A DNA stretch of 32,000 nt from Candidatus Peribacter riflensis (GTDB taxonomy: Bacteria; Patescibacteriota; Gracilibacteria; Peribacterales; Peribacteraceae). A program made the position numbers and the translations under genes. A model generated the notes under the pieces. That model did no database searches. It was not told the DNA's origin and saw only the letters and a list, made by a program, of their open reading frames with translations. The stretch lies in contig CP013062.1 of the NCBI GenBank assembly GCA_001430755.1, positions 30,001 to 62,000 of the forward strand, read 5' to 3'. Below are positions 21,669 through 25,216 of this stretch, piece after piece; the first letter of the stretch is position 1, and every line of letters starts with the position of its first letter.

Positions 21669-23024
21669 ATGCAACCGAGTAACTTGTTCGCGCACTTGCG
21701 CGGGAGTCTTCGTGGTCAATTGATCGCCAGCGGTGCCGACTTCGGCGTGGTCGAAGTGCGTCACGGTCTGATGCAGCAGGAGACTACGGTCATCCTGTAC
21801 ACCGATCTCAAGTCACAGCGCTTTCACTTCGTCCCGGAAGTCATGGACGGGGTGGAGGGGGCGGTCGACTTCAGGGTCGGTCGCGATCAGATCTGGATTC
21901 GGACGGACCGCCCGGTTCGGTTCCAGGTGAAGAAGCTCACCAGCCGGCAGCGCGATCCGCTGTTGGTCAAGGTGGATGTCTTCGAGAGGCAGGGTCGCTA
22001 CGAATTGAACATTCTGGTGCCCCTCGCCATGGAAGTCGTGCGGTTGGCCACGGTGGTAGACACTGCGAGCCTCATGCGTAGCGAAGAGCCGGAACTGCCC
22101 GCCATGTCGATGGTGGGACCGATCTTCGAGGGCCTTGAGCCTGTACAGTCTTCGGAGCGTCCCTCCGAGACTCTGGCGCAGGCCCTCGCGCAGCAGCTCC
22201 GTGCCACCCTCGGCCCCGACTATCGGGTCACCCTTGGGGAGCCGAAGCGAACGCGTACGTCCGGCGGTATCGCCTCGCTGATCGAGCGCATCCTCGGCCG
22301 CAAGGCCCAACAGCCGATCCCCGGCGTTCACGAGGATGGGCATGGTGGCTATACGATCGAGGCCGCCTCCATGGCCGATGCGGCGCAGAAGCTCCGTGAG
22401 CTGAACGCCACGCTGGAACCGGGCGAGATGCTGATCCCTCGTGGTCCGCTGGCGGCTGCCTTACAGGAAGCCGCTGGTACCCAGTCTTCGGACGGCTCGG
22501 CGCAGGATGAGGCGATGTTTGCCCGCTTGCTGCGGGCAATGTCACCTTCGCACCTGAAGGCTCTCGAGCAGGAGGATTGCGACACCTGCGTTCGGCGAGG
22601 CCACTGCCCCGTCGAACCGCTCATGCGGGAATCGCGGCGCGTCCTCGGCATCACGCCGAAATCGCGCCGTCGCGGGGTTACCTCCGATCCGTGGAGCGCT
22701 ATCGGCTCCATGTTCAACTATCCGTCCTCCCCGTCGCGTCGCGACGTGCAGAGGCAGGAGCACGTGTGTGCGAGCTGCCCACATGTGTCTTGCTCAAGCC
22801 ACCCGGCCAATCCGGCGCGCAGGCGTCGGGAGGCCGAGGCACAGCAGGCCAATCCGGTCACCGCGGAAAATCCCGTGGAGCCGCAGGCGCCTCAGTCCGA
22901 ACCGGCCGCAGCCTCCTCCGATGCGGGCAATGAGTCCGCGCAGGATCAGGCCGAGGTCGTTGGTACGGGCGTTGAGGCTCAGGCCGAAGCGCCGTCGTCC
23001 GGTGGTAATGGCAGCGCATCCTAG
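21669..23024 (+). CDS. hypothetical soluble protein with two CxxC-containing motifs and a disordered acidic/Pro-rich tail
   Basis: 451 aa, ATG with an AAAGGA RBS 8 nt upstream. No TM segment or signal peptide. Cys motifs are C304-x2-C307-x5-C313-P and C367-x2-C370-x4-C375. The C-terminal ~70 aa is rich in A/E/P/Q/S. No family recognised. Confidence 0.7.
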   Translation: MQPSNLFAHLRGSLRGQLIASGADFGVVEVRHGLMQQETTVILYTDLKSQRFHFVPEVMDGVEGAVDFRVGRDQIWIRTDRPVRFQVKKLTSRQRDPLLVKVDVFERQGRYELNILVPLAMEVVRLATVVDTASLMRSEEPELPAMSMVGPIFEGLEPVQSSERPSETLAQALAQQLRATLGPDYRVTLGEPKRTRTSGGIASLIERILGRKAQQPIPGVHEDGHGGYTIEAASMADAAQKLRELNATLEPGEMLIPRGPLAAALQEAAGTQSSDGSAQDEAMFARLLRAMSPSHLKALEQEDCDTCVRRGHCPVEPLMRESRRVLGITPKSRRRGVTSDPWSAIGSMFNYPSSPSRRDVQRQEHVCASCPHVSCSSHPANPARRRREAEAQQANPVTAENPVEPQAPQSEPAAASSDAGNESAQDQAEVVGTGVEAQAEAPSSGGNGSAS

Positions 23025-23079: not shown

Positions 23080-23104
23080 GCCGCATGCTCCCCTGCGGCT
23101 TTTT
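23080..23104 (+). terminator. rho-independent terminator of the 451-aa gene
   Basis: gccgca (23080-23085) pairs with tgcggc (23094-23099) around an 8-nt loop, followed by ttttt (23100-23104). Confidence 0.6.
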
Positions 23105-23167
23105 CGTGCGCGAAATGTATGTATACATTTCGCTCTGTCGTGTGGATGTTGAAGATGCGAGTGAGAA

Positions 23168-23256
23168 TGGTGCCGTGGGGGAGACTCGAACTCCCATGTC
23201 CTAGAACGGACACTAGCCCCTCAAGCTAGCGCGTCTACCAGTTCCGCCACCACGGC
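23168..23256 (-). tRNA. tRNA-Leu (anticodon GAG), class II with long variable arm, CCA encoded
   Basis: The minus strand GCCGTGGTGGCGGAACTGGTAGACGCGCTAGCTTGAGGGGCTAGTGTCCGTTCTAGGACATGGGAGTTCGAGTCTCCCCCACGGCACCA folds by hand. Acceptor stem is 7 bp and the D stem 3 bp. The anticodon stem is CTAGC/GCTAG with loop TTGAGGG. The variable arm is GTCC/GGAC and the T arm is GGGAG-TTCGAGT-CTCCC. Confidence 0.93.
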
Positions 23257-23282
23257 AGGCAACCGCTCGCCAGCATAGCAAG
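23233..23282 (-). repeat. 50-bp direct repeat, copy 1 (tRNA-Leu nt 1-24 plus 26 nt of 5' flank)
   Basis: Identical at 50/50 positions to 23718-23767: gtctaccagttccgccaccacggcaggcaaccgctcgccagcatagcaag. Confidence 0.95.
23272..23280 (-). promoter_or_regulatory. tRNA-Leu promoter: extended -10-like TGcTATGCT with TTGCTC -35-like element (23299->23294, 16-nt spacer)
   Basis: Minus strand reads TTGCTCgcctcaagcgtcttgcTATGCTggcgagcggttgcct followed by tRNA nt 1. The predicted +1 is about 9 nt upstream of the mature 5' end. Confidence 0.4.
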
Positions 23283-23384
23283 ACGCTTGAGGCGAGCAAC
23301 CGAAAACAGCGTGATCAGAGCCAATCGCAGTGCCATTGCAGTAACTCAGGTCATCCACGAGCCGGTACTTCCTGCGTTTCAGCG

Positions 23385-23675
23385 TCAGCCCCGCTTGCAG
23401 TGGTGGGCAGCTCGACGGCTCGCAGCAATGTCTGATTGGGCTATACAACCTTTCAGCCATTCTTTGCCACAACCAGATTTCAGATATTTTTCCCTGGTCC
23501 TTGCCCTTGCTCGGGATGGGACATGTTCTTCGTACACCAATCGAAATGGCCGGTAAGGACGAGTAGTTTTCTCTCTCCCGTCCTGGTGTTGTTTCACTCT
23601 CTTGAGAAGATTGTGCGTTAAGCCAACGTACAGGTATGTATGGGTAGTGCTTTGCAGAACATAAACTGTGTACAT
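23385..23675 (-). CDS. GIY-YIG nuclease-domain protein (small, catalytic domain only)
   Basis: 96 aa: MYTVYVLQSTTHTYLYVGLTHNLLKRVKQHQDG...RPFRLVYEEHVPSRARARTREKYLKSGCGKEWL. The V-Y-V (GIY) and Y-V-G (YIG) strands, the Arg in KRVKQH and the Glu in REKYLK match the small GIY-YIG family pattern. Confidence 0.85.
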   Translation of the reverse strand: MYTVYVLQSTTHTYLYVGLTHNLLKRVKQHQDGREKTTRPYRPFRLVYEEHVPSRARARTREKYLKSGCGKEWLKGCIAQSDIAASRRAAHHCKRG

Positions 23676-23698
23676 ATCTTTCTAGAAATGCATGCGCG

Positions 23699-23718
23699 CC
23701 TGCCTGCCGGCAGGCAGG
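23699..23718. other. perfect 20-nt palindrome at the tRNA-fragment breakpoint
   Basis: cctgcctgccggcaggcagg equals its own reverse complement, and its last base is the first base of repeat copy 2. A 10-nt palindrome tttctagaaa (23679-23688) lies between it and the GIY-YIG ATG. Confidence 0.9.
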
Positions 23719-23767
23719 TCTACCAGTTCCGCCACCACGGCAGGCAACCGCTCGCCAGCATAGCAAG
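23718..23767 (-). repeat. 50-bp direct repeat, copy 2 (orphan tRNA-Leu 5' fragment nt 1-24 at 23741->23718 plus flank carrying TGcTATGCT at 23765->23757)
   Basis: Identical to 23233-23282. Upstream, TTGCCC (23784->23779) and cgctgtttt keep the same offsets as in copy 1. Confidence 0.95.
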
Positions 23768-23821
23768 CTGCCACCCGTGGGCAATACAAAACAGCGCAAT
23801 TGAGAGCCGTGTTCCGCCTGA

Positions 23822-25216
23822 TTAGAAGCTCAGCTCATCCACCAGCAGGTACTCCTCCCCCCTCTTCATCGTGTCTTCATTCCGCTTACGGTATTCCTGA
23901 ATGAAGGTGTCGGAAACCTCAAGGGAGCGGAGCAGGGGCTCGATATTCTGTGTGAATGTCGCCACTGTTGCCGGCGGCTGAACGGTGAACGAAACCGTAT
24001 CGAGTTTGGTGAGCGTGTTATCCGGTTCGAGGCGCAAGATCTGGAATGTACCGACGGCGTTACTGAGTTTCAGGCGGTGTTCATCCCACAGCGAGCGGAG
24101 CGCTTCGCGCATTTGACTGTTCTCGATCACATTGAATGAGCGGATGGTCAGATCACGTTTGAATTGCAGGGAGGTTGCCTCCAGATCTTGGAAGAGGAGG
24201 CCGAGTATGAGCAGTGCCGTCTGGCTGTCGCGTGGACCGATAATTTCTTCCAGATCTGCTACAGGGATACTGCGCTCCTGTCCCAATAGCACCGTGGAAC
24301 CGAAAGGAATGTTCCGGTCATTGTCGAAGAAGCTCTGCATGAGAATGGCCTTTCCCGTTGCAGAGTGGTAGGCGGCATCCGTAAATGTGGGTGAGAGCAT
24401 CTCGTACGTCCCGTCCGAAAGGCGGTAGAGCACTGTTCCCCAGTGGCTGCGATCCAGCACACTGAAGAGCAGTATCTGGTCGTTGACGAAGAACGGAGAG
24501 AAGTGCACCTGTTCGGGGTCGAAGGATGGAACAGCAAGCGTCATCGCCGTCCGCTGCGTGAGATGAACGACGGAAATACGGGGCAGGGCAGCGTGATCGA
24601 TGACGGCCAGAGTCGTCTCGGCCGGAGACAGCACCATGCGGCGTTGCTGCGGAACACCCAGCGCCTCGAAGAGCGGGGCGGGTTCGTACCAGTCCGCCGC
24701 TGCGGACAGGGGGATGTCTGCAATGTCGCCGCATCCGGAGAATGCAATGCGCACGCGCGGGTTCCGGCTTTCATCAGAGAGCGAGAAGGTGAAGTTGGTA
24801 TTCCGGCTTAAGAGGACGAGCGGGCTTCCACTTCCCGCAAGAGGGTCGTATGCGTACGCAGAAGCCATGTCCCGGACACGGGCATGTTGTTCCGAGGCGA
24901 TGAGGACGGCTTTTGGAGAGAGAAGGCGTGCGGGTCTGGCGATTTCCTGTGCGTCTTCGAATGGAGTGGCCGTGCGGATTGTTTTCGGCGATGACACGTC
25001 GTAGAGATCGAGTCGCGTACCCTGCCGGAAGAGCAGAGCCTGCAGTGTTGGCGTGATATCGGAAAATACGCGCACTCTGTTCTGAGGTCTCCATTCCTGG
25101 GTGAATACGTACACAGCCAAGGCGAATGCGCAGAGGAGGGGGAGCAGTACCAGCCTGTTGCGCCATGTCGGAGGGACAAGCATGCCTGAAGCCGGCGGAG
25201 TCGTCACAGGTGTCAT
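23822..25216 (-). CDS. hypothetical N-terminally anchored extracytoplasmic protein
   Basis: 464 aa with a single N-terminal TM segment (LVLLPLLCAFALAVYVF); the remainder is non-hydrophobic. Its ATG overlaps the upstream stop (ATGA, 25213-25216). No family recognised. Confidence 0.7.
   Translation of the reverse strand: MTPVTTPPASGMLVPPTWRNRLVLLPLLCAFALAVYVFTQEWRPQNRVRVFSDITPTLQALLFRQGTRLDLYDVSSPKTIRTATPFEDAQEIARPARLLSPKAVLIASEQHARVRDMASAYAYDPLAGSGSPLVLLSRNTNFTFSLSDESRNPRVRIAFSGCGDIADIPLSAAADWYEPAPLFEALGVPQQRRMVLSPAETTLAVIDHAALPRISVVHLTQRTAMTLAVPSFDPEQVHFSPFFVNDQILLFSVLDRSHWGTVLYRLSDGTYEMLSPTFTDAAYHSATGKAILMQSFFDNDRNIPFGSTVLLGQERSIPVADLEEIIGPRDSQTALLILGLLFQDLEATSLQFKRDLTIRSFNVIENSQMREALRSLWDEHRLKLSNAVGTFQILRLEPDNTLTKLDTVSFTVQPPATVATFTQNIEPLLRSLEVSDTFIQEYRKRNEDTMKRGEEYLLVDELSF

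What the first reader, a model, noticed from the sequence alone, without database searches (positions are those of the whole stretch)
23168..23810. GIY-YIG nuclease cassette on a duplicated tRNA-Leu promoter plus tRNA 5' fragment (perfect 50-bp direct repeat)
Seen directly: a 50-nt string occurs twice in direct orientation with no mismatch (23233-23282 and 23718-23767). Copy 1 is nt 1-24 of an intact, well-folding tRNA-Leu(GAG) plus the 26 nt upstream of it. Copy 2 is therefore an orphan tRNA 5' fragment, broken inside the 3' strand of the D stem, with the same flank. That flank carries an extended -10-like TGcTATGCT 15 nt upstream of tRNA nt 1. Beyond the perfect repeat, both copies keep a TTGC (-35-like, 16-nt spacer) and a cgctgtttt block at identical offsets (+14 and +21). 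The 13 nt in between are unrelated (4/13 matches), so the homology is mosaic rather than uniformly decayed. The 435 bp between the repeats encode only a 96-aa GIY-YIG catalytic-domain protein. A perfect 20-nt palindrome (23699-23718) begins exactly at the tRNA-fragment breakpoint. Inference: the nuclease gene is transcribed from a captured copy of a tRNA promoter as tRNA fragment, hairpin, ORF and possibly the tRNA itself. The unit behaves like a small selfish (homing-type) insertion that regenerated the tRNA 5' end. Fifty bp is far too long for a transposon target-site duplication, and no transposase or integrase is present.
Basis: partly seen in the sequence, partly recalled or inferred. Interest (0 to 1): 0.72.

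Follow-up and report, generated by a model that had tools for sequence, protein, structure and literature searches.

The report
Nuclease–palindrome cassette parasitising tRNA genes
The 50-base repeat is real and marks a 485-bp selfish cassette: a tiny GIY-YIG nuclease gene plus a 20-base palindrome, sitting in a leucine tRNA gene and carrying a spare tRNA 5' end so the tRNA still works. The same design recurs next to tRNA genes in more than 100 loci from many bacterial phyla, and I found no description of it in the searchable literature.

Summary
The 50-nt repeat is exact and lies on the 5' end of the only tRNA in the window. Two assemblies carry it.

The "broken" tRNA fragment is better read as tRNA nt 1-23, then an exact 20-nt palindrome (PAL, CCTGCCTGCCGGCAGGCAGG), then tRNA nt 24-28, then the GIY-YIG gene. 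Homology between the two copies runs about 140 nt. It includes a fragment of the neighbouring 464-aa gene. That fragment resembles another Peribacteraceae lineage more than the host's own gene.

Three relatives have the locus empty. Of 80 genomic loci encoding relatives, 73 have a same-strand tRNA within 150 nt. Metagenome loci give 34 of 45 genes.

The gene always lies between an intact tRNA and a partial copy interrupted by PAL. PAL is a precise insertion without target duplication, mostly in the D loop. PAL marks the boundary between target-like and diverged DNA, and it stays identical while synonymous sites saturate. A more distant nuclease clade carries a different, longer hairpin at the same tRNA position.

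The closest known system is the Ssn nuclease family with its hairpin repeats, and phage T4 SegB. My best reading is a selfish, recombination-driven cassette expressed from the tRNA promoter. The cleavage substrate is inferred, not shown.

The parts
23822..25216 (-). Resident 464-aa conserved hypothetical gene. Its last 11 codons (EEYLLVDELSF*) are the 'A' segment that is duplicated in diverged form downstream of the cassette ORF.
   Evidence: ORF list. Orthologues at 40-54% identity occur in Peribacteraceae with conserved synteny.
23768..23821 (-). Resident intergenic region ('B'), with the CTGTTTT block and the -35-like TTGC (23784-23781) of the promoter that now reads into the pseudo-tRNA and the nuclease gene.
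   Evidence: Alignment of five tRNA-Leu(GAG) upstream regions: TTGC and TTG-TATGCT are invariant.
23742..23767 (-). Repeat copy 2, promoter and leader part: extended -10 (TTGCTATGCT; TATGCT at 23762-23757) and a 15-nt leader.
   Evidence: Exact repeat. The -10 is conserved in relatives. The leader is not conserved between lineages but is identical in both window copies.
23719..23741 (-). Pseudo-tRNA, nt 1-23 of tRNA-Leu(GAG). This is the outer, target-like segment.
   Evidence: Exact repeat. Across the family the segment on this side of PAL is near-identical to the intact tRNA (0.34 mismatches per 12 nt).
23699..23718 (.). PAL, the perfect 20-nt palindrome CCTGCCTGCCGGCAGGCAGG, inserted between tRNA nt 23 and 24 (D-loop / D-stem 3' junction).
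   Evidence: The same 20-mer is exact in 49 of 93 occurrences in related loci. It maps as an exact 20-nt insertion at 69 sites. DNA fold of the 92-nt leader: -23.5 kcal/mol, z = -2.95.
23694..23698 (-). Pseudo-tRNA resumes (nt 24-28, CGCGC) and then diverges. This is the inner, element-borne relic.
   Evidence: Read directly from the sequence. Across the family the ORF-side segment is more diverged (1.56 mismatches per 12 nt).
23385..23675 (-). 96-aa single-domain GIY-YIG nuclease gene (78-aa conserved core plus an 18-aa lineage-specific tail). GC is 0.47-0.53, against 0.55-0.71 in the flanking genes.
   Evidence: Pfam PF01541, E=5.5e-14. All family-invariant residues are present, including Y5, Y16, G18, R26 and E62. 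Nearest solved relatives are UPF0213 proteins and SLX1. Composition.
23283..23375 (-). A'B': a diverged second copy of the 464-aa gene's 3' end (translates RKYRLVDDLSY) plus the intergenic region and -35. It is closer to the orthologous locus of another Peribacteraceae lineage than to the host's own gene.
   Evidence: Alignment score 23, against shuffles of 7.7 +/- 1.3. The A' core matches L086 at 32/36 and the host's own gene at 25/30. Orthologue C-termini are mostly ...LVDDLSY.
23257..23282 (-). Repeat copy 1, promoter and leader part, immediately upstream of the intact tRNA.
   Evidence: Exact repeat; promoter alignment.
23168..23256 (-). Intact tRNA-Leu(GAG). Nt 1-24 belong to repeat copy 1.
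   Evidence: ARAGORN; Rfam RF00005 at 52.4 bits.

Best explanation
The repeat is the footprint of a 485-bp selfish cassette in the tRNA-Leu(GAG) gene of Candidatus Peribacter riflensis.

What the cassette contains, in order:
- PAL, a 20-nt palindrome, as one terminus.
- A short relic of older tRNA sequence.
- A promoter-less gene for a single-domain GIY-YIG nuclease.
- A spare copy of the tRNA promoter and tRNA nt 1-23, which rebuilds a working tRNA gene from the resident 3' part.

It belongs to a large family found across many phyla. In that family the nuclease gene always sits between one intact tRNA gene and one partial tRNA copy split by a clade-specific hairpin insertion.

Proposed working (inferred):
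1. The resident tRNA promoter transcribes pseudo-tRNA, PAL hairpin, nuclease ORF and, probably, the tRNA.
2. The nuclease, like its characterised Ssn relatives, recognises its cognate hairpin and cuts at its edge.
3. The resulting break or nick lies at a tRNA/PAL junction. It is repaired by homologous recombination or gene conversion against another tRNA gene copy. The near-universal tRNA sequence serves as the homology arms.
4. This copies the cassette into unoccupied tRNA genes of sister chromosomes, conspecifics or related lineages. It also generates tandem arrays.

Because the cassette always supplies or preserves one intact tRNA copy, insertion is nearly neutral.

Shown: the anatomy, the family-wide recurrence, the empty sites, the sequence constraint on PAL, and PAL as the boundary of element-borne DNA.
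Inferred: which DNA is cut, whether the substrate is single-stranded, and the recombination route.
For: Window-specific:
- Exact repeat, tRNA, ORF and PAL.
- Two assemblies are identical.
- Relatives have the same locus with promoter and tRNA only, no GIY-YIG and no PAL: L084, L087 and L089.
- The cassette-side flank A'B' is significantly homologous to the resident gene end. It is closer to another lineage (L086, 32/36) than to the host gene (25/30).
- It encodes ...YRLVDDLSY, as the orthologues do, whereas the host gene ends in VDELSF.
- Cassette GC is lower than that of its neighbours.

Family-wide:
- 73 of 80 genomic loci have a same-strand tRNA within 150 nt. Background is 0.027 tRNA per kb.
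- Replicated in 34 of 45 genes from metagenome contigs.
- Pseudo-tRNA plus PAL is present in 60 of 80 genomic loci.
- 69 PALs map as exact 20-nt insertions without target duplication. 53 of them lie at two D-loop positions, across Leu, Arg, Asn, Phe and Gly tRNAs.
- Sequence on the outer side of PAL is near-identical to the intact tRNA, and the ORF side is diverged. The pattern is mirrored in the two architectures (28:3 and 5:0 loci).
- Tandem arrays are 92-100% identical.
- ORFs are under purifying selection (dN/dS 0.12-0.35). Their synonymous sites are saturated while PAL stays 20/20 identical.
- A more distant ORF clade carries a different 31-46-nt hairpin (CCYGCCCG...CGGGCGG) at the same D-loop site. 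It never occurs together with PAL.
- In most loci the ORF ends 0-30 nt before tRNA nt 1.

Precedent:
- Ssn nucleases are about 94-aa single-domain GIY-YIG enzymes that cut ssDNA beside hairpin repeats flanking their own genes (PMC11893778).
- T4 SegB is a GIY-YIG homing enzyme that recognises a tRNA T-loop motif (PMC2330249).
Against: - No biochemical data exist for this clade.
- PAL does not match the published Ssn-related motif (0 of 85 sites). Membership of the Ssn clade (CDD cd10448) could not be tested.
- No near-identical cassette was found in a second genome or a second tRNA. The best inter-locus ORF identity is 79% in a species-dereplicated sample, so recent mobility is not directly shown.
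- The intact tRNA regenerates any tRNA-borne target site, which is awkward for a classical homing scheme.
- PAL also occurs on its own. There are 42 exact copies in viral contigs, and only 1 is next to a GIY-YIG gene. A few solo copies occur in bacterial flanks. PAL dispersal therefore needs a mechanism that the recombination model does not supply.
- The 50-nt perfect identity next to diverged flank requires a conversion tract or very recent transfer, which is assumed rather than demonstrated.
- The donor-lineage inference rests on about 40 nt.
Confidence: 0.55

Rival explanations
1. Classical double-strand homing endonuclease. The nuclease recognises and cuts the intact tRNA gene at the D loop, which is where PAL sits. 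Repair from an occupied allele copies the cassette in. PAL is only a plug that destroys the site in the pseudo-tRNA.
For: - PAL lies at the same structural tRNA position in five tRNA types.
- PAL is exactly the boundary between target-like and element-borne DNA.
- Empty and occupied alleles both exist among relatives.
- Imported flank resembles a co-conversion tract.
- Tandem arrays are what re-cutting of the regenerated tRNA would produce.
- T4 SegB is a precedent for a GIY-YIG enzyme recognising a conserved tRNA motif.
Against: - The protein is a bare catalytic domain of about 78 aa, without the DNA-binding module of known GIY-YIG homing enzymes.
- The target would be regenerated in every occupied genome.
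- A passive plug would not need to be identical across phyla while synonymous sites saturate. Nor would it co-vary with the nuclease clade.
- PAL also inserts at anticodon-arm and T-arm junctions and outside tRNAs.
Confidence: 0.2
2. Domesticated host function. The nuclease and PAL form an Ssn-like host system, for example controlling recombination or transformation of single-stranded DNA. The gene simply uses strong tRNA transcription, the ORF itself is not mobile, and the duplications are by-products of PAL activity at tRNA genes.
For: - Ssn modulates natural transformation in Neisseria and is proposed to be domesticated.
- ORFs are old and under purifying selection.
- No near-identical copies were found between genomes.
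- PAL disperses without the gene.
Against: - Presence is patchy among close relatives, with precise empty sites.
- The gene occupies many different tRNA genes and comes in two mirror architectures.
- Tandem arrays exist.
- Pseudo-tRNA alleles and flank look foreign.
- Cassette GC is lower than the host's.
Confidence: 0.15
3. An old, fixed local tandem duplication of the promoter and tRNA 5' end that happened to trap a nuclease gene. The perfect 50 nt are kept by selection on two promoters or by local gene conversion, and no mobility is involved.
For: - Both copies carry a complete, conserved promoter.
- No second copy exists in the window.
- Only one locus was found for the exact protein.
Against: - The same architecture recurs at more than 100 independent tRNA loci.
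- The leader at -15..-1 is not conserved between lineages yet is identical here.
- A', which is non-functional, resembles orthologues more than the functional host gene does. This is the opposite of in-situ decay.
- PAL is shared across phyla.
Confidence: 0.05
4. A remnant of an integrase-mediated genomic island (att-site duplication in a tRNA gene), or an assembly artefact.
For: tRNA genes are classical integration sites and produce direct repeats of tRNA segments. This is established knowledge; see also PMC9897764, listed.
Against: - The duplication covers the 5' end and promoter, not the 3' end.
- The insert is 485 bp with no integrase.
- Two assemblies agree.
- The architecture is reproduced in isolate genomes and complete chromosomes, for example Niabella CP190246 and Algoriphagus.
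Confidence: 0.03

Closest known systems
Ssn nucleases with NTS/SRM hairpin repeats (Chenal et al., Nat Commun 2025, PMC11893778)
   Same: - Single-domain GIY-YIG protein of about 80-96 aa with no DNA-binding domain.
- The gene is flanked by a short hairpin-forming inverted repeat, on both sides in some loci (L022, L039, L052, L058, L059).
- The hairpin type co-varies with the nuclease clade.
- The hairpin also occurs away from the gene.
   Different: - The hairpin sequence is unrelated to the published SRM consensus (0 of 85 matches).
- Copy number is low, not hundreds per genome.
- The gene is embedded between an intact and a hairpin-split tRNA copy. The Ssn paper contains no occurrence of the word tRNA.
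- Clade membership (cd10448) and ssDNA cleavage are untested here.
Phage T4 SegB, a free-standing GIY-YIG homing endonuclease in a tRNA gene cluster (PMC2330249)
   Same: - A GIY-YIG gene lodged among tRNA genes.
- It recognises a conserved tRNA stem-loop motif.
- It spreads with flanking tRNA DNA by co-conversion.
- Presence/absence polymorphism occurs among relatives.
   Different: - SegB is a larger, modular enzyme in phages.
- It has no tRNA duplication, no pseudo-tRNA and no conserved palindrome.
- Its target lies in the T arm, whereas these cassettes mostly use the D loop.
REP/BIME repeats with RAYT transposases, and IS200/IS605 'peel and paste' elements
   Same: - A short palindromic repeat is paired with one small cognate enzyme gene that the repeats flank.
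- Insertion leaves no target-site duplication.
- Hairpin recognition is likely.
   Different: - The enzyme here is a hydrolytic GIY-YIG nuclease, not an HUH/Y1 transposase, so strand transfer would need host functions.
- The strict association with tRNA genes is not a feature of REP/RAYT systems.
tRNA-targeting integrative elements (integrase-mediated islands and prophages)
   Same: They insert in a tRNA gene and carry a tRNA segment that restores the gene, leaving a direct repeat of tRNA sequence.
   Different: They use a tyrosine or serine integrase, usually duplicate the 3' end, and are kilobases long. Here there is no integrase, the 5' end plus promoter is duplicated (or the 3' end plus terminator in the mirror class), and the whole element is 0.3-0.5 kb.
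Group I introns with homing endonuclease genes in bacterial tRNA-Leu genes
   Same: A selfish nuclease-bearing insertion in tRNA-Leu that leaves tRNA function intact.
   Different: No ribozyme is present: Rfam finds only tRNA. Function is preserved by duplicating part of the gene rather than by RNA splicing, and the site is the D loop rather than the anticodon loop.

Membership tests
GIY-YIG nuclease superfamily | Significant match to the GIY-YIG catalytic domain profile | tested here: met
   Pfam PF01541: 52.7 bits (cut-off 22.6), E=5.5e-14, residues 1-67. Profile hits to the UPF0213 structures 1ZG2 and 1YWL and to SLX1.
GIY-YIG nuclease superfamily | Catalytic motif residues present: Tyr of 'GIY', Tyr-x-Gly of 'YIG', conserved Arg and Glu | tested here: met
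   Y5, Y16, V17, G18, R26 and E62 are invariant in a 39-sequence alignment that includes the window protein. Assigning these residues to catalytic roles rests on published knowledge of the fold.
Ssn family (site-specific ssDNA nucleases, CDD cd10448) | Single-domain GIY-YIG protein under 150 aa | tested here: met
   96 aa with a 78-aa conserved core and no other Pfam domain.
Ssn family (site-specific ssDNA nucleases, CDD cd10448) | Falls in the cd10448 / SsnA clade | not testable with these tools
   No CDD search is available and no SsnA sequence (CAX49033.1) was in hand. NCBIfam gave no family.
Ssn family (site-specific ssDNA nucleases, CDD cd10448) | Gene flanked by a 20-50-nt hairpin-forming inverted repeat | tested here: met
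   PAL lies 23 nt upstream of the start codon in the window. 54 PALs lie within 150 nt upstream of family ORFs, and roughly 15 lie just downstream. PAL-ORF-PAL occurs in L022, L039, L052 and L058.
Ssn family (site-specific ssDNA nucleases, CDD cd10448) | Repeat conforms to the published SRM consensus HGTCWY... | tested here: not met
   0 of 85 PAL sites overlap an SRM match. The regular expression does recognise the NTS controls.
Ssn family (site-specific ssDNA nucleases, CDD cd10448) | Sequence-specific cleavage of single-stranded DNA next to the hairpin | not testable with these tools
   Needs biochemistry. The only indirect hints are paired substitutions in PAL (T5+A12, C3+G14, A8+T13), which are compatible with hairpin pairing.
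Free-standing GIY-YIG homing endonucleases (Seg / I-TevI type) | Presence/absence polymorphism at the same locus in relatives | tested here: met
   L084, L087 and L089 carry the orthologous tRNA-Leu(GAG) locus without ORF or PAL.
Free-standing GIY-YIG homing endonucleases (Seg / I-TevI type) | Catalytic domain linked to a separate DNA-binding domain | tested here: not met
   Only the catalytic domain is present. The 18-aa C-terminal tail is not conserved in the family.
Free-standing GIY-YIG homing endonucleases (Seg / I-TevI type) | Insertion destroys the enzyme's target site in the occupied allele | tested here: inconclusive
   The pseudo-tRNA is disrupted by PAL, but an intact tRNA with the same sequence is regenerated 485 nt away. 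The true target is unknown.
Integrase-mediated tRNA-targeting islands | Integrase gene and duplication of the tRNA 3' end | tested here: not met
   The 485-bp insert has a single 96-aa ORF, and the duplication covers the promoter plus tRNA nt 1-23.
DNA transposons / MITEs | Transposase, terminal inverted repeats and target-site duplication | tested here: not met
   No transposase is present. PAL inserts as exactly 20 nt with no duplicated target bases at 69 mapped sites. PAL and the longer hairpins do share inverted termini (CCYGCC...GGCRGG).

The most novel reading that the evidence does not exclude
These cassettes are a previously unrecognised class of minimal mobile element. A nuclease gene of about 240 nt is paired with a 20-46-nt hairpin mini-element with conserved CCYGCC...GGCRGG termini.

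The hairpin would itself be moved in trans by the nuclease, as an exact insertion without target duplication. It would go preferentially into tRNA D loops, but also into phage genomes and other DNA.

The gene would spread by using tRNA sequence, the most conserved DNA available, as a universal landing pad and homology arm across phyla. That would amount to a transposase-free, hairpin-nuclease-driven form of DNA mobility.
Probability: 0.35. Interest if true: 0.88.

Novelty: new variant of a known kind. Interest (0 to 1): 0.8.

Why it matters
- It would explain why thousands of tiny 'GIY-YIG nuclease family protein' genes sit next to tRNA genes in Patescibacteria, Bacteroidota, Omnitrophota, Ignavibacteriota and other phyla.
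- It would explain why many of their database entries carry spurious N- or C-terminal extensions, which are translated tRNA and palindrome sequence (for example VAELVDLPAGRQA).
- It links the recently discovered Ssn hairpin nucleases to a concrete selfish life-style. tRNA genes supply the promoter, the landing site and the recombination homology.
- It offers a set of natural nuclease/hairpin pairs with different specificities that could be tested as sequence-specific ssDNA tools.
- It affects annotation. Pseudo-tRNA fragments, tRNAs carrying hairpin insertions and mis-called start codons cluster at these loci and break assemblies.

Tried and rejected
- Looked for the exact 97%-identical variant protein P0001 on contigs. 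It is not on record.
- Searched metagenome contigs for the copy-1-specific promoter spacer, to find the donor lineage in its native context. There were 0 hits.
- A protein-seeded metagenome scan found no relative above 65% identity, so no close sister cassette is available.
- tblastn against plasmids gave only two weak hits. The family is not plasmid-borne in that collection, and this route to an annotated Ssn homologue failed.
- Tested PAL against the published SRM motif. There was no match.
- Rfam on the window and on 20 related loci found only tRNA. No known RNA family covers PAL or the leader.
- The promoter/terminator scanner found no sigma-70 consensus promoter here. The promoter call therefore rests on conservation across relatives, not on the scanner.
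- PAL as an intrinsic terminator is rejected. No U-tract follows it, and in other loci tRNA sequence follows directly.
- PAL as a spliced tRNA intron is rejected. Most pseudo-tRNAs are truncated.
- Three Logan contigs (L083, L085, L088) end at the same position inside the tRNA. I first read this as evidence of insertions, but it is equally explained by D-loop polymorphism between co-occurring strains. I do not use it.
- Literature searches for the palindrome itself, and for GIY-YIG with tRNA fragments, pseudo-tRNA, Patescibacteria or Ssn, found no description of this architecture. The library lacks most subscription journals.
- No structure prediction was run. Sequence evidence for the fold was sufficient.
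Full report
**1. Checking the observation**

The window holds an exact 50-nt direct repeat at 23233-23282 and 23718-23767, spaced 485 nt apart. It holds a single tRNA gene, tRNA-Leu(GAG), on the minus strand at 23168-23256 (ARAGORN; Rfam 52.4 bits). Copy 1 of the repeat is tRNA nt 1-24 plus the 26 nt upstream.

Between the copies, the only credible gene is a 96-aa minus-strand ORF at 23675..23385. It matches Pfam GIY-YIG at E=5.5e-14.

The window is contig DNSX01000007.1 of GCA_003500185.1. A second assembly, GCA_003509365.1, is 100% identical over the region and carries both repeat copies. A neighbouring protein is named Candidatus Peribacter riflensis by its source.

**2. Two corrections to the anatomy**

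Read on the minus strand, the upstream copy is not a broken tRNA. It runs:
- tRNA nt 1-23;
- the perfect palindrome CCTGCCTGCCGGCAGGCAGG (PAL, 23718-23699);
- tRNA nt 24-28 (CGCGC);
- 18 unrelated bases;
- the start codon.

PAL is therefore a precise 20-nt insertion.

Region 23296-23369 aligns with the last 11 codons of the 464-aa gene (23822-25216) and the intergenic region. The alignment score is 23, against 7.7 +/- 1.3 (maximum 15) for shuffles.

On the minus strand the layout is:
1. gene end (A);
2. intergenic region with promoter (B);
3. 26-nt leader plus tRNA nt 1-23;
4. PAL;
5. relic;
6. nuclease ORF;
7. second gene-end fragment (A');
8. second promoter (B');
9. 26-nt leader plus the intact tRNA.

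**3. The promoter**

I aligned both window copies with the upstream regions of the orthologous tRNA in three relatives. The alignment shows an invariant TTGC, an invariant TTG-TATGCT (extended -10) and a T-rich block.

The 8-15 nt between the -10 and tRNA nt 1 differ between lineages but are identical in the two window copies. The perfect 50 nt therefore cannot be explained by shared selective constraint alone.

**4. Empty sites and foreign flank**

Orthologues of the 464-aa protein (40-54% identity) exist in other Peribacteraceae with conserved synteny.
- In L084 and L087 the tRNA-Leu(GAG) gene follows the orthologue in convergent orientation.
- In L089 it follows co-directionally, exactly as in the window.
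- In all three there is only promoter plus tRNA. There is no GIY-YIG gene and no PAL.

The A' fragment translates to RKYRLVDDLSY. Most orthologues end in ...LVDDLSY, and one ends in ...EEYRLVDDLSY (P0132). The host's own gene ends in ...LLVDELSF.

At the DNA level, A' matches the gene end of lineage L086 at 32/36 and the host's own gene at 25/30. B' is likewise closer to the relatives' promoters than B is.

A non-functional fragment that looks more orthologue-like than the functional gene is the opposite of in-situ decay. It suggests that the ORF-to-tRNA part of the cassette came from another Peribacteraceae lineage. The cassette is also lower in GC (0.47-0.53) than its neighbours (0.55-0.71). 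The donor inference rests on about 40 nt and is only moderately strong.

**5. The family**

The protein has hundreds of relatives of about 78 aa in Patescibacteria, Peregrinibacteria, Bacteroidota and other groups. A profile search counts 17,382 50%-identity clusters at E<=1e-3 and 3,718 at E<=1e-10.

Database entries with N- or C-terminal extensions read VAELVDLPAGRQA or AELVDA. These are translated tRNA-plus-PAL and tRNA sequence.

In 80 genomic loci encoding relatives (45-65% identity):
- 73 have a same-strand tRNA within 150 nt: 55 downstream of the ORF, 14 upstream and 4 both;
- 5 more have one within about 320 nt;
- tRNA density in the distal flanks is 0.027 per kb.

The adjacent tRNAs are mostly Leu, of all anticodons, and also Arg, Gly, Met, Asn, Lys and Phe.

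An independent set of 39 metagenome loci gives 34 of 45 genes next to a same-strand tRNA. This includes distant relatives (37-46% identity) next to Asp, Val, Thr, Ile, Ala, Gln, Lys, Ser and Cys tRNAs.

**6. A common architecture**

On the far side of the ORF from the intact tRNA there is a partial copy of that same tRNA.
- When the intact tRNA is downstream, the partial copy is a 5' part upstream of the ORF.
- When the intact tRNA is upstream, the partial copy is a 3' part plus a duplicated terminator downstream of the ORF.

The partial copy carries PAL. I counted 93 PAL occurrences with three or fewer mismatches, 49 of them exact. 54 lie within 150 nt upstream of an ORF start, and roughly 15 lie just downstream of one.

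At 69 sites, PAL maps as an exact 20-nt insertion with no duplicated or deleted target bases:
- 28 at the D-loop / D-stem 3' junction, which is the window's site and the same structural position in Leu, Arg, Asn and Phe;
- 25 inside the D loop after nt 14/15;
- most of the rest at loop-stem junctions of the anticodon and T arms.

Some pseudo-tRNAs hold two or three PALs (L038, L049, L027). Tandem arrays of the whole unit exist at 92-100% identity (L014, L025, L057, L031). In most downstream-tRNA loci the ORF ends 0-30 nt before tRNA nt 1, or runs into it. The tRNA must then be transcribed through the ORF from the promoter upstream of the pseudo-tRNA.

**7. PAL is a constrained site and the terminus of element-borne DNA**

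The 12 nt on the outer side of PAL are almost always identical to the intact tRNA. The 12 nt on the ORF side are diverged.
- Downstream-tRNA class: 0.34 against 1.56 mismatches (28 loci against 3).
- Mirror class: 2.57 against 0.29 mismatches (5 loci against 0).

PAL therefore sits exactly at the junction between young, target-like sequence and older sequence that travels with the ORF. In some loci the pseudo-tRNA is a different allele from the resident tRNA (L039, L075).

The ORFs evolve under purifying selection (dN/dS 0.12-0.35). Their synonymous sites are saturated (pS up to 0.79) between elements whose PALs are identical at 20/20.

Recurrent PAL variants are paired substitutions: T5+A12 and its reverse complement T9+A16, C3+G14, and A8+T13. 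These are compatible with hairpin pairing in shifted or full register. I did not test this formally.

The more distant ORF clade carries a different, longer hairpin (CCYGCCCG...CGGGCGG, 31-46 nt). It is inserted at the same GGTA^GAGC D-loop position and never occurs together with PAL (12 of 39 metagenome loci). Nuclease clade and hairpin type therefore co-vary, while the insertion site in the tRNA is kept.

**8. PAL also travels alone**

A PAL-seeded scan of viral contigs found 42 exact copies in 35 stretches. By my own rough estimate, fewer than one would be expected by chance for a 20-mer in a collection of that order of size.
- Only one copy is next to a GIY-YIG gene. That one lies in a tRNA-like D loop (L162).
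- One copy lies in the variable loop of a tRNA-Met that still scores 50 bits with the Rfam tRNA model (L155).
- A few solo PALs also lie in non-tRNA DNA in the bacterial flanks.

PAL thus behaves as a low-copy dispersed mini-insertion. Its mode of insertion is unexplained.

**9. Comparison with what is known**

The nearest characterised system is the Ssn family (PMC11893778). These are single-domain GIY-YIG proteins of about 94 aa that bind a hairpin repeat (NTS/SRM) flanking their own gene and cut single-stranded DNA beside it. Specificity co-varies between homologues.

That paper has no occurrence of 'tRNA'. PAL does not fit its SRM consensus (0 of 85). I could not test whether the window protein belongs to cd10448.

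T4 SegB is a GIY-YIG homing enzyme in a tRNA cluster that recognises an 11-bp T-loop motif. It shows that GIY-YIG enzymes can exploit tRNA conservation. SegB, however, is modular and causes no duplication.

Integrase islands, transposons and group I introns each fail defining features (see the membership table).

Full-text searches for the palindrome and for several GIY-YIG/tRNA term combinations found no description of this architecture. The searchable library is incomplete.

**10. Mechanism**

I take these points as shown:
- a cassette with a defined terminus (PAL);
- a constrained cognate hairpin;
- a selected nuclease gene without its own promoter;
- preservation of one intact tRNA;
- empty alleles in relatives;
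- imported-looking flank;
- arrays.

I infer that the nuclease acts at its hairpin, as in the Ssn paradigm. I also infer that the resulting lesion at the tRNA/PAL junction is repaired against another tRNA copy, which copies the cassette by gene conversion and produces arrays.

A conversion tract ending at -26 would explain the sharp edge of the perfect 50 nt.

The main alternative is classical homing, with the cut in the intact tRNA D loop and PAL as a passive plug. It explains the junction equally well. It does not explain PAL's extreme conservation, its co-variation with the nuclease clade, or the lack of a DNA-binding domain. Neither model explains solo PAL insertions.

**11. Verdict**

It needs correcting on which promoter copy is resident and on what the palindrome is. 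The window is one example of a widespread cassette family linking Ssn-like nucleases to tRNA genes, and I found no description of that family in the searchable literature.

Noticed in passing
window 21669-23024 (+): A 451-aa ORF with no Pfam match and a Pro/Ala/Arg/Ser-rich C-terminus lies between the tRNA and the adenylosuccinate lyase gene. The relatives L084 and L087 have nothing comparable there (about 150-190 nt, or a 69-aa ORF, instead). It may be a lineage-specific insertion beside the same tRNA.
   Followed up: partly
L084 4410-4498, L087 4394-4482, L089 4464-4552 versus window 23168-23256: The orientation of tRNA-Leu(GAG) with its promoter, relative to the conserved 464-aa gene, differs among Peribacteraceae. 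It is convergent in L083, L084, L087 and L088, and co-directional in L089 and the window. The tRNA unit has therefore been inverted at least once in this family.
   Followed up: partly
L083 end (4485), L085 end (4481), L088 end (4474): Three independent Logan contigs stop at the same place inside the tRNA (…GCGCGTCTACC[A], tRNA nt 17/18). This could reflect D-loop polymorphism between co-occurring strains, or a repeat or insertion at that spot.
   Followed up: no
L155 2239-2330: A viral-contig tRNA-Met carries an exact PAL in its variable loop. ARAGORN still calls it a 92-nt tRNA, and Rfam scores it at 50.2 bits over the full model. PAL here might mimic a long variable arm without killing the tRNA.
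   Followed up: partly
L131-L165 (viral contigs): 42 exact PAL copies occur in viral contigs, almost all without a GIY-YIG gene or tRNA nearby. Some lie inside short tandem repeats (L131, L160) or recur in similar contexts (L151, L158). The base before PAL is mostly a purine and the base after it mostly a pyrimidine.
   Followed up: partly
L022 3309-3540: A second pseudo-tRNA-Leu copy is interrupted in its T arm by about 230 nt of GC-rich, hairpin-rich sequence of unknown nature. Rfam finds no family there.
   Followed up: partly
window 23742-23751 versus 23699-23709: The leader/tRNA start (GGTTGCCTGCCG) shares 9 nt (TGCCTGCCG) with the left half of PAL. It can pair with PAL's right half in the predicted single-strand fold, giving an alternative to the PAL hairpin. 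The relative L089 has CCCTGCCG at the same place, so part of this is native sequence.
   Followed up: partly
window 23108-23127 and 23080-23099: Just downstream of the tRNA lies an AT-rich 8-bp hairpin (GAAATGTA-TACA-TACATTTC). Next to it is a GC-rich terminator-like hairpin followed by T5 on the plus strand. Together they look like a bidirectional terminator between the tRNA and the 451-aa ORF.
   Followed up: no
Database proteins P0009, P0011, P0043, P0104, P0039, P0056 and many: Many family entries in public databases are 20-60 aa too long at the N-terminus, or extended at the C-terminus. Gene callers translated the pseudo-tRNA, PAL or the following tRNA (motifs ELVDLPAGRQA, AELVDA).
   Followed up: yes
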